Source: a virus
Reading direction: 5' to 3' (one strand)
Length of the DNA: 64,000 nt
IMG/VR virus record: IMGVR_UViG_3300023175_000028
Coordinates: 3,473 to 67,472 of that record
Shown in pieces: positions 2,874 through 2,945 of this stretch. How positions within the stretch are numbered: the stretch's first letter is position 1; every line of letters begins with the position of its first letter. The notes under the pieces were generated by a model. The model did no database searches, was not told where the DNA came from, and was given only the letters and a program-made list of their open reading frames with translations. Made by a program: the position numbers and the translations under genes.

Positions 2874-2945
2874 CTACTTGTTCATTACATACATTGTAAC
2901 TTCAAATCCAAAACGCATTTCTGTAAAAGTTGGTGTTGTCCACAT
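2874..2945 (-). CDS. pqqA: Coenzyme PQQ precursor peptide PqqA ([23 protein letters not shown])
   Basis: 23-aa ORF with MW..P start and G-x-E-V-T-x-Y motif (E-x3-Y, the residues that form PQQ); RBS GAAAGGAGA; own terminator. Not in the ORF track. Confidence 0.93.
   Translation of the reverse strand: [23 protein letters not shown]

What the first reader, a model, noticed from the sequence alone, without database searches (positions are those of the whole stretch)
2874..2945. Stand-alone phage-encoded PqqA, the peptide precursor of PQQ
Seen: [23 protein letters not shown] with strong RBS, own terminator and a TAAATA late-type motif at 2967-2972; no pqqB-E genes in the window. Established: PqqA is consumed stoichiometrically, its Glu and Tyr being cross-linked by PqqE/PqqD, and PQQ is the cofactor of methanol, alcohol and glucose dehydrogenases. 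From memory, the [11 protein letters not shown] form is closest to Methylophilaceae PqqA. Inference: the phage supplies the precursor to sustain host energy generation, and the host may be a methylotroph. Novelty against existing phage metagenome reports is unchecked.
Basis: partly seen in the sequence, partly recalled or inferred. Interest (0 to 1): 0.9.

Follow-up and report, generated by a model that had tools for sequence, protein, structure and literature searches.

The report
Phage-borne PqqA gene, already reported
A jumbo phage that most likely infects methanol-eating Methylophilaceae bacteria carries its own copy of the tiny gene for the peptide that is turned into the cofactor PQQ; the gene is real, but phage copies of it have been described before.

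Summary
Window 2874..2945 (-) encodes [23 protein letters not shown], which scores well above the curated cut-offs of both PqqA models. It has an AGGAG ribosome site and lies just downstream of the gp23-type capsid gene and its terminator.

The record is a 67-kb piece of a roughly 350-400 kb T4-core jumbo phage. No pqqB, C, D or E was found in it or in a 96%-complete 356-kb relative.

The peptide is 21/23 identical to the commonest Methylophilaceae PqqA. The 9 matching records from cultured phages are all Methylophilales or Methylophilaceae phages, and the gene is unannotated there. The host inference is therefore supported.

The gene is common in phages.

Most likely the phage supplies the consumed precursor to the host's PqqBCDE. 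That step is inferred, not shown.

Novelty is low. Phage PqqA was reported for Lake Baikal T4-like phages of Methylophilaceae in 2020, and listed again in 2026.

The parts
2874..2945 (-). pqqA coding sequence, 23 codons plus stop: [23 protein letters not shown]
   Evidence: Translation. PF08042 42.3 bits and TIGR02107 45.2 bits. The homologous ORF is intact in 119 of 120 IMG/VR loci.
2953..2957 (-). Shine-Dalgarno AGGAG, 7 nt upstream of the ATG
   Evidence: Read directly. DNA similarity to host and other phage pqqA copies extends about 12-15 nt upstream of the ATG.
2967..2974 (-). TTTAAATA, a possible variant of the T4-type late promoter (TATAAATA, recalled consensus)
   Evidence: The block GTGTTTAAATAATA is identical in relative L117. 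A gp55-like late sigma factor is encoded at 18582..19403. Promoter activity is not shown.
2839..2856 (-). GC-rich hairpin (UUCG loop) after pqqA, with a weak U tail here
   Evidence: -11.8 kcal/mol, z -2.14. flags it only on the + strand. The same hairpin has a 7-T tail in L117.
3024..3049 (-). Strong intrinsic terminator of the capsid gene, immediately upstream of the pqqA unit
   Evidence: 11 pairs, T run. (-20.7 kcal/mol, z -5.64; 0 of 200 shuffles fold as well).
3076..4236 (-). gp23-type major capsid protein gene, the upstream neighbour that fixes the phage context
   Evidence: PF07068 335.9 bits. 68-72% identical to capsid proteins of 285-470 kb jumbo phages. 86% identical to that of a 356-kb IMG/VR genome.

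Best explanation
This is a genuine, stand-alone pqqA gene carried as an auxiliary metabolic gene by a lytic T4-core jumbo phage of about 350-400 kb, whose host is a member of the Methylophilaceae (Methylotenera, Methylopumilus or OM43 type). Shown: the gene's identity, its phage context, the lack of pqqB-E, its near-identity to the host peptide, and selection on the coding sequence across many phages. Inferred: the short gene is expressed during infection from its own RBS, probably late, either by read-through from the capsid transcript or from a late-type promoter. The peptide is then bound by the host's PqqD, cross-linked between Glu15 and Tyr19 by the host's PqqE, and finished by the host's protease, PqqB and PqqC. 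A phage that shuts down host transcription would therefore stop the supply of the only consumable part of the pathway while the enzymes persist. A phage copy keeps PQQ flowing to the periplasmic PQQ-dependent methanol dehydrogenase, and so keeps energy available for replication. The logic resembles that of cyanophage psbA (a recalled analogy).
For: Identity. Both conserved cross-link residues are present with the E-x3-Y spacing. Phage context: capsid, protease and portal genes, baseplate genes, late sigma factor, IMG/VR virus record. Stand-alone: no PqqE, C, B or D over cut-off in 0 of 5 records (G000 and four pqqA-bearing records; three share its capsid, among them a 96%-complete 356-kb genome), although pqqA is found in 5 of 5. 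As a positive control, pqqC was found in 5 of 5 Methylophilaceae genomes. Host match: the commonest cellular form, [23 protein letters not shown] (52 of 129 ORFs), is 21/23 identical to the window peptide. The coding DNA is up to 91.7% identical to cellular copies. Cultured Methylophilales and Methylophilaceae phages from separate groups carry intact copies: unclassified P19250A, Venkman and MEP301; Zobellviridae MEP401/402; Kyanoviridae Melnitz (ORFs read in five loci, MEP401 not). Selection: among 97 distinct nucleotide versions from 103 23-aa viral forms, the 14 codons not fixed by the search pattern have third-position entropy 1.03 bits, against 0.49 and 0.39 at positions 1 and 2. Dosage matters in hosts: 61 of 61 genomes of the family have pqqA, with 1-12 matches per genome and a median of 5 (the tool warns that matches are not copy numbers). 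Weak expression hint: contigs from four RNA-library runs cover the region, and summed contig depth is highest over 2669..6003 (326-3450, against 0-39 in bins 1..2001 and 7338..8004). The tool warns that contig depth cannot rank genes and that RNA libraries can contain DNA. Prior report with the same reading: PMC7678222.
Against: No experiment shows that any phage PqqA is translated or converted to PQQ. PQQ is a recycled cofactor, so a need for new PQQ within one infection cycle is assumed, not shown. Only 1 of 50 pqqA-bearing viral records searched also encodes a PQQ-dependent methanol/ethanol-type dehydrogenase (these were G000 plus the records of 49 of the 120 loci, mostly the longer contigs). 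The record is only 17% of a genome by CheckV, so absence of pqqB-E in this phage itself rests on its relatives. The window peptide differs from the host form at positions 6-7 (TF instead of AA), with unknown effect on PqqD binding. The RNA data cannot resolve pqqA from the capsid gene's 3' end. The host assignment rests mostly on pqqA itself; the window has no tRNA to give an independent host signal.
Confidence: 0.8

Rival explanations
1. The peptide is made but is not used for PQQ supply. It might be a decoy that ties up host PqqD/PqqE, a signal, or a substrate for the phage's own radical SAM enzymes.
For: The window encodes two radical SAM proteins. PQQ is not consumed in catalysis, so extra synthesis is not obviously needed.
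Against: The radical SAM genes lie more than 52 kb away in a sugar-modification cluster, next to an epimerase/dehydratase, a 2OG-Fe(II) oxygenase and a glycosyltransferase. Their best NCBIfam matches are a twitch-domain radical SAM family (317 bits) and weak, below-cut-off matches to generic radical SAM families; neither is a PqqE equivalog, and no PqqD-type partner was found. Small 35-44 kb phages carry the same peptide. No neighbour is conserved with pqqA across relatives. The phage peptides are kept nearly identical to host PqqA, as expected for a true substrate.
Confidence: 0.08
2. It is a functionless passenger: a recently captured host fragment with no role in infection.
For: The gene is tiny and its DNA is up to 91.7% identical to host copies, including the RBS region. 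Its position differs among related jumbo phages.
Against: 119 of 120 IMG/VR loci hold intact ORFs, and variation is concentrated at third codon positions. The gene is present in cultured methylophages from separate taxonomic groups, and in the stretches compared it is the only DNA they share: matches to P19250A, MEP301, Venkman and Melnitz fall at 618-712 of the MEP402 locus, where pqqA lies at 621-689. The cassette, with its upstream block and hairpin, is conserved in L117.
Confidence: 0.07
3. The pqqA copy serves as DNA homology with the host's multi-copy pqqA, as a recombination or integration target, and not as a coding gene.
For: Hosts carry several dispersed pqqA matches. In Venkman and MEP301 the gene lies on the strand opposite to its neighbours, beside recombinase genes.
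Against: Selection acts on the protein, not on exact DNA identity: 97 distinct nucleotide versions, with synonymous variation. Best identity to sampled host DNA is 91.7% over 72 nt. No integrase was seen among the window ORFs scanned. As far as I recall, T4-core jumbo phages are lytic.
Confidence: 0.03
4. The real gene is the 60-aa ORF on the opposite strand (2791..2973, +), and the PqqA frame is coincidental.
For: Such an ORF exists. GenBank annotates an opposite-strand ORF over the Melnitz copy.
Against: Two curated HMMs match the minus-strand frame at about twice their cut-offs. The codon-position pattern fits the PqqA frame. All neighbouring genes are on the minus strand.
Confidence: 0.01

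Closest known systems
PqqA of Lake Baikal T4-like phage population VP_266 (Coutinho et al. 2020, Microbiome 8:163, PMC7678222; passages read)
   Same: A stand-alone PqqA on a T4-type phage contig with about 35% GC (34.7% here). The predicted host is Methylophilaceae, and the proposed role is support of PQQ-dependent methanol oxidation.
   Different: VP_266 also encodes a methanol dehydrogenase; none was found in this 67-kb record, which is only about 17% of a genome. I could not compare sequences with VP_266 directly. The sequencing runs that hold this window are labelled salt marsh, not lake.
Chromosomal PqqA of Methylophilaceae (TIGR02107 / PF08042)
   Same: The same length, 21/23 identity to the commonest form, the same VMNK tail, and a similar RBS region.
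   Different: It is encoded by a phage and is not next to pqqBCDE. Positions 6-7 are TF instead of AA.
Unannotated pqqA of cultured methylophages P19250A, Venkman, MEP301, MEP401/402 and Melnitz
   Same: Intact 23-24 aa PqqA ORFs read in five of these (MEP401 not read), each preceded by a purine-rich Shine-Dalgarno-like stretch of varying strength, 68-91% identical to the window peptide.
   Different: These are 35-142 kb phages of other lineages. In those records the gene is either unannotated or covered by a wrong-strand 'hypothetical protein'. The papers on them that my searches reached do not mention it.
Cyanophage psbA (recalled analogy, no call)
   Same: A phage copy of the host component with the fastest turnover in the energy-yielding pathway, expressed to keep that pathway running after host shut-off.
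   Different: psbA function in infection has been shown experimentally, whereas phage pqqA function has not. PqqA is a consumed biosynthetic substrate, not a structural subunit.

Membership tests
PqqA (TIGR02107 PQQ_syn_pqqA; Pfam PF08042) | Scores above the curated cut-off of the family models, over their full length | tested here: met
   TIGR02107 45.2 bits against 20, profile positions 1-21 of 21. PF08042 42.3 bits against 21.1, positions 1-19 of 19.
PqqA (TIGR02107 PQQ_syn_pqqA; Pfam PF08042) | Very short stand-alone ORF (about 20-40 aa) with its own start, stop and ribosome-binding site | tested here: met
   23 codons, ATG start, TAG stop, AGGAG 7 nt upstream.
PqqA (TIGR02107 PQQ_syn_pqqA; Pfam PF08042) | Conserved Glu and Tyr that become PQQ, spaced E-x-x-x-Y (established knowledge; the PqqE cross-link papers are cited in PMC7678222) | tested here: met
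   E15-V-T-M-Y19 in the translation. The same residues are fixed in the viral and cellular copies, although the search patterns required them.
PqqA (TIGR02107 PQQ_syn_pqqA; Pfam PF08042) | Lies in or beside a pqqBCDE operon | tested here: not met
   No PqqB, C, D or E over cut-off in the record or in four further pqqA-bearing records, three of which share its capsid. This is typical context rather than a strict requirement: genomes of the host family give 1-12 pqqA matches each.
PqqA (TIGR02107 PQQ_syn_pqqA; Pfam PF08042) | Is bound by PqqD, cross-linked by PqqE and converted to PQQ | not testable with these tools
   Needs biochemistry or genetics. At 23 aa the peptide is below the minimum length of the complex-prediction, homology-search and atlas tools.
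Phage-encoded PqqA auxiliary metabolic gene (as in Coutinho et al. 2020) | Encoded on a bona fide phage genome, not on a host fragment | tested here: met
   It is flanked by the gp23 capsid, prohead protease and gp20 portal genes. Baseplate genes and a late sigma factor are also present. It is an IMG/VR virus record.
Phage-encoded PqqA auxiliary metabolic gene (as in Coutinho et al. 2020) | The host has the rest of the PQQ pathway and PQQ-dependent enzymes | tested here: inconclusive
   The host is inferred, not known. pqqC was found in 5 of 5 Methylophilaceae genomes tested and pqqA in 61 of 61. Host pqqB/D/E and xoxF were not searched.
Phage-encoded PqqA auxiliary metabolic gene (as in Coutinho et al. 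2020) | Co-encoded methanol dehydrogenase (seen in VP_266) | tested here: not met
   TIGR03075 gave no match in G000. Only 1 of 50 pqqA-bearing records (G019) has it. The record is a 17% fragment, so absence in the whole phage is not shown.

The most novel reading that the evidence does not exclude
pqqA is a hallmark gene of phages that infect Methylophilaceae, captured repeatedly from hosts by unrelated lineages: sipho-, podo-, T4-like myo- and jumbo phages. It has been overlooked in every cultured methylophage genome that my searches surfaced. If so, PqqA supply is the limiting step of PQQ-dependent methylotrophy during infection. The 23-aa peptide would then serve as a sequence-only host marker, and the AMG hypothesis could be tested directly in existing culture systems.
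Probability: 0.45. Interest if true: 0.6.

Novelty: new member of a known kind. Interest (0 to 1): 0.4.

Why it matters
Methylophilaceae (OM43, LD28, Methylotenera) are major methanol and C1 oxidisers in coastal and fresh waters. If phages keep PQQ synthesis going during infection, viral infection directly shapes C1 oxidation rates. For this window the gene adds a confident host assignment to an otherwise host-less jumbo phage. More broadly, the same gene sits unannotated in cultured methylophage-host pairs. The proposed function, so far only inferred from metagenomes, could therefore be tested at the bench. Gene callers and annotators are also missing a widespread 72-nt auxiliary gene.

Tried and rejected
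The 98-aa ORF just downstream (2292..2588, -) is not a PqqD-like chaperone. It has no Pfam or PHROG family, TIGR03859 gave no match in the record, and there is no homologue beside pqqA in relatives.

The two radical SAM ORFs are not PqqE.

The glutamine riboswitch next to pqqA has no general link to it. A strict regex for its core found it in the window, in L117 and in L255, but in only 1 of 120 IMG/VR loci, 0 of 5 isolate loci and 0 of 120 cellular loci. In L117 it lies upstream of pqqA, not downstream. The regex is stricter than the Rfam model, so some copies may have been missed.

The 33-aa riboswitch-controlled ORF had no tblastn match among 50,697 phage records.

The window has no tRNA for an independent host signal.

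RNA contigs could not show whether pqqA itself is transcribed, because its bin also holds the capsid gene's 3' end, and only one read-laying run was allowed.

Table S4 of PMC13188868 and the tables of PMC7678222 may name the pqqA-bearing contigs. The original P19250A paper is not in the searchable library, so I cannot say whether it mentions pqqA.

The statement that papers on cultured methylophages do not report the gene rests on searches and on the passages read.

Full report
WHAT IS THERE. The ORF at window 2874..2945 on the minus strand translates to [23 protein letters not shown]. It matches Pfam PF08042 (PqqA) at 42.3 bits against a gathering score of 21.1. It matches the NCBIfam equivalog TIGR02107 at 45.2 bits against a cut-off of 20. 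Both matches run over the whole profile. AGGAG lies 7 nt upstream of the ATG. The Glu and Tyr that form PQQ (established knowledge) are present as E15-x3-Y19.

CONTEXT. The window is bases 3473-67472 of a 67,472-base IMG/VR virus record that CheckV rates as 17% complete. GC is 34.7%.
- The upstream neighbour on the same strand is a gp23-type major capsid gene (3076..4236, PF07068, 335.9 bits).
- Further upstream in the direction of transcription lie a prohead protease (5362..5997) and a gp20-type portal (8226..9977).
- Baseplate proteins and a gp55-like late sigma factor (18582..19403, phrog_12791, 259.7 bits) complete a T4-type core.
- The capsid protein is 68-72% identical to those of 285-470 kb jumbo phages: Sinorhizobium Phosso, Vibrio 2.275.O, Xanthomonas XbC2, Serratia BF and Pseudomonas PA5oct.
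- It is 86% identical to that of a 356,312-base IMG/VR genome rated 96% complete (G011).
The phage is therefore a jumbo phage of roughly 350-400 kb.

LOCAL ANATOMY, read on the minus strand.
- The capsid gene ends with a strong intrinsic terminator at 3049..3024 (-20.7 kcal/mol, z -5.64).
- Then comes a spacer of about 50 nt holding TTTAAATA (2974..2967), then the RBS and pqqA.
- Next is a GC hairpin with a UUCG loop (2856..2839; -11.8 kcal/mol, z -2.14) followed by only four U.
- The whole unit recurs in the one close relative among the IMG/VR loci (L117; capsid 86%, protease 96%). That covers the upstream block GTGTTTAAATAATA, the RBS, the gene and an identical hairpin. There it also lies downstream of the capsid gene, and the hairpin has a 7-T tail.
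- The phage's enriched upstream motif is ATAAATA: 13 copies on both strands, 8 of them within 70 nt upstream of one of 46 genes. The full TATAAATA occurs 4 times, against 11.1 expected by shuffling.
- pqqA carries only the weaker TAAATA core, which occurs 75 times in the window. A late promoter is plausible but not shown.

STAND-ALONE STATUS. Pfam and NCBIfam scans of the window's larger ORFs found no PqqB-E.
- Two radical SAM ORFs exist. 55475..56857 is a twitch-domain radical SAM protein (317 bits on NF033640). 62465..63463 has only weak, below-cut-off matches to generic radical SAM families.
- 62465..63463 scores 19.5 bits on the PqqE model (cut-off 381.35), and that model is not among the matches listed for 55475..56857. 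Both sit in a sugar-modification cluster.
- Whole-record searches covered G000 and four other pqqA-bearing records; G011, G022 and G027 share its capsid, G019 gave no capsid match. They found pqqA in 5 of 5 and none of PqqE, PqqC, PqqB or PqqD over cut-off in 0 of 5.
- The pqqC search worked as a control in 5 of 5 Methylophilaceae genomes.
- In G011, G022 and G027 pqqA lies elsewhere in the genome, among small ORFs with no homologues in the window. It therefore behaves as a mobile single-gene cassette.

HOST.
- By record title, 91 of these are Methylophilaceae-type: Methylotenera, Methylophilus, Methylopumilus, Methylobacillus, Methylovorus, OM43 and similar.
- Another 25 carry only higher-rank names. 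The other 4 are two contigs of one Acidovorax caeni MAG, one Rhodocyclaceae MAG and one Pseudomonadales MAG.
- Of 129 PqqA ORFs in these loci, 52 are [23 protein letters not shown] (21/23 identical to the window) and 29 are the K4 variant. The Rhodocyclaceae and Pseudomonadales forms are only 16/23 identical.
- tblastn against 50,697 phage records found 12 records. The 9 from cultured phages are P19250A (91%), Venkman and MEP301 (87%), MEP401/402 (78%) and four Melnitz strains (68%). All were isolated on Methylophilales or Methylophilaceae.
- The other three are an uncultured Caudoviricetes genome and two contigs of 'Acinetobacter phage MD-2021a'.
- The runs that hold the window are all labelled salt marsh metagenome (24 of 24 listed).

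HOW COMMON IT IS IN PHAGES.
- A pattern scan of IMG/VR for W-x2-P-x3-[DE]-x-R-x-G-x-E-x-T-x-Y stopped at 120 loci. In 119 of them I recovered a short PqqA ORF; L076 gave none in its stored stretch. The commonest form is [23 protein letters not shown].
- Locus GC ranges from 0.30 to 0.47.
- Of 49 such records examined, those at least 90% complete are six of 32-44 kb and the 356-kb G011. Only L117 shares structural genes with the window.
- Among 97 distinct nucleotide versions, the 14 codons not fixed by my pattern vary mainly at the third position (entropy 1.03 bits, against 0.49 and 0.39). Selection therefore acts on the peptide.
- In the cultured phages the gene is intact with an ATG start in the five loci I read (MEP401 was not read), preceded by a purine-rich Shine-Dalgarno-like stretch of varying strength. 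In GenBank it is either unannotated or covered by a wrong-strand ORF.
- In the stretches compared, pqqA is the only DNA shared between MEP402 and P19250A, MEP301, Venkman and Melnitz.

MECHANISM (inferred). One PqqA is consumed per PQQ. Genomes of the host family give 1-12 pqqA matches each (median 5, 61 of 61 genomes), which suggests that precursor dosage matters. A lytic phage that stops host transcription would cut the supply of this short-lived substrate while PqqB-E persist. A phage copy restores it and keeps the PQQ-dependent methanol dehydrogenase supplied. Placement behind the most highly expressed late gene would fit high demand. Contigs from four RNA libraries cover the region, and summed depth is highest over the capsid module. 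However, contig depth cannot rank genes, DNA can contaminate RNA libraries, and pqqA is not resolved from the capsid gene's 3' end. Only 1 of 50 pqqA-bearing records also encodes a methanol/ethanol-type quinoprotein dehydrogenase (G019, 608 bits).

WHAT IS KNOWN.
- Coutinho et al. 2020 (PMC7678222; passages read) describe T4-type Lake Baikal phage populations with 35% GC, predicted to infect Methylophilaceae. One of them, VP_266, encodes PqqA and a methanol dehydrogenase, and the authors propose the same function.
- A 2026 reservoir-sediment study lists virus-encoded pqqA, pqqE and pqqD (PMC13188868; passages read).
- The Melnitz paper mentions PQQ only as a medium additive (PMC9004378; passages read).
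- Searches for OM43 + phage + pqq, 'Methylophilales phage' + PQQ, and PqqA + viral + methylotroph found no further report.
The finding is thus a new member of a known kind. What appears not to be in print is how widespread the gene is and that it sits unannotated in cultured methylophages.

VERDICT. Gene identity, stand-alone status and host inference are supported. The function is plausible but untested, and novelty is low. Interest 0.4.

Noticed in passing
window 2773..2820 (-) and 2646..2747 (-): A glutamine riboswitch (RF01739, 47.5 bits against 35) lies directly downstream of the pqqA hairpin. It is followed by AGGAGGAG and a 33-aa ORF (MSNYTLWCYKQLIRQHHIKKINDIFLKKMYFSG). Relative L117 has the same riboswitch plus a homologous 28-aa ORF, but upstream of pqqA. 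The small ORF has no tblastn match among 50,697 phage records.
   Followed up: partly
window 2235..2324 (-): A freshwater-2 RNA motif (RF02980, 70.7 bits against 49.9). Its model includes the RBS and ATG of the 145-aa ORF 1800..2237 (-), which has no Pfam or PHROG family.
   Followed up: no
window 2622..2649 (-): A near-consensus sigma-70-type promoter (TTGACA, 16 nt, TG-TATAGT; 11 of 12 matches) upstream of the 98-aa ORF 2292..2588 (-), which has no known family.
   Followed up: no
window 29174..44764 (+): A single 5196-aa ORF inside the baseplate and tail-fibre module. It is too long for the family scans and I did not analyse it.
   Followed up: no
window 52319..63878 (+): A run of same-strand genes. 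It includes a putative glycosyltransferase, a twitch-domain radical SAM protein (NF033640, 317 bits), an NAD-dependent epimerase/dehydratase, a 2OG-Fe(II) oxygenase and a second radical SAM protein. It is probably a sugar- or surface-modification cluster.
   Followed up: partly
window 15075..15524 (-): A SegE-like GIY-YIG homing endonuclease (PF19835, 122.8 bits) next to SbcC/SbcD-like (gp46/47-type) genes at 15742..18518.
   Followed up: no
L255 (G019:C1:30000-46000); dehydrogenase at G019:C1:34049-35731, pqqA at 41890-41952: A 72-kb IMG/VR record (20% complete) encodes both a PQQ-dependent methanol/ethanol-type dehydrogenase (TIGR03075, 608 bits summed) and pqqA about 6 kb apart. A glutamine-riboswitch core lies 2.1 kb upstream of pqqA. 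This resembles the published VP_266.
   Followed up: partly
phage records CAKLQF020000010.1 (108210-108263) and CAKLQH020000055.1 (419-472): Two contigs of 'Acinetobacter phage MD-2021a' give a partial PqqA-like tblastn match (72% over residues 2-19, E 0.03). This hints that phages of non-methylotrophic PQQ producers may also carry pqqA.
   Followed up: no
L125 (Melnitz-1, MZ577095.1) 4001..4066 (+): In the Melnitz genomes the PqqA ORF lies between tRNA genes and is overlapped by an annotated opposite-strand 'hypothetical protein' (3961..4056, -), which is probably a mis-call.
   Followed up: partly
L198 and L218 (two contigs of one Acidovorax caeni MAG): Both carry the Methylophilaceae-type PqqA ([23 protein letters not shown]). 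They may be mis-binned contigs.
   Followed up: no
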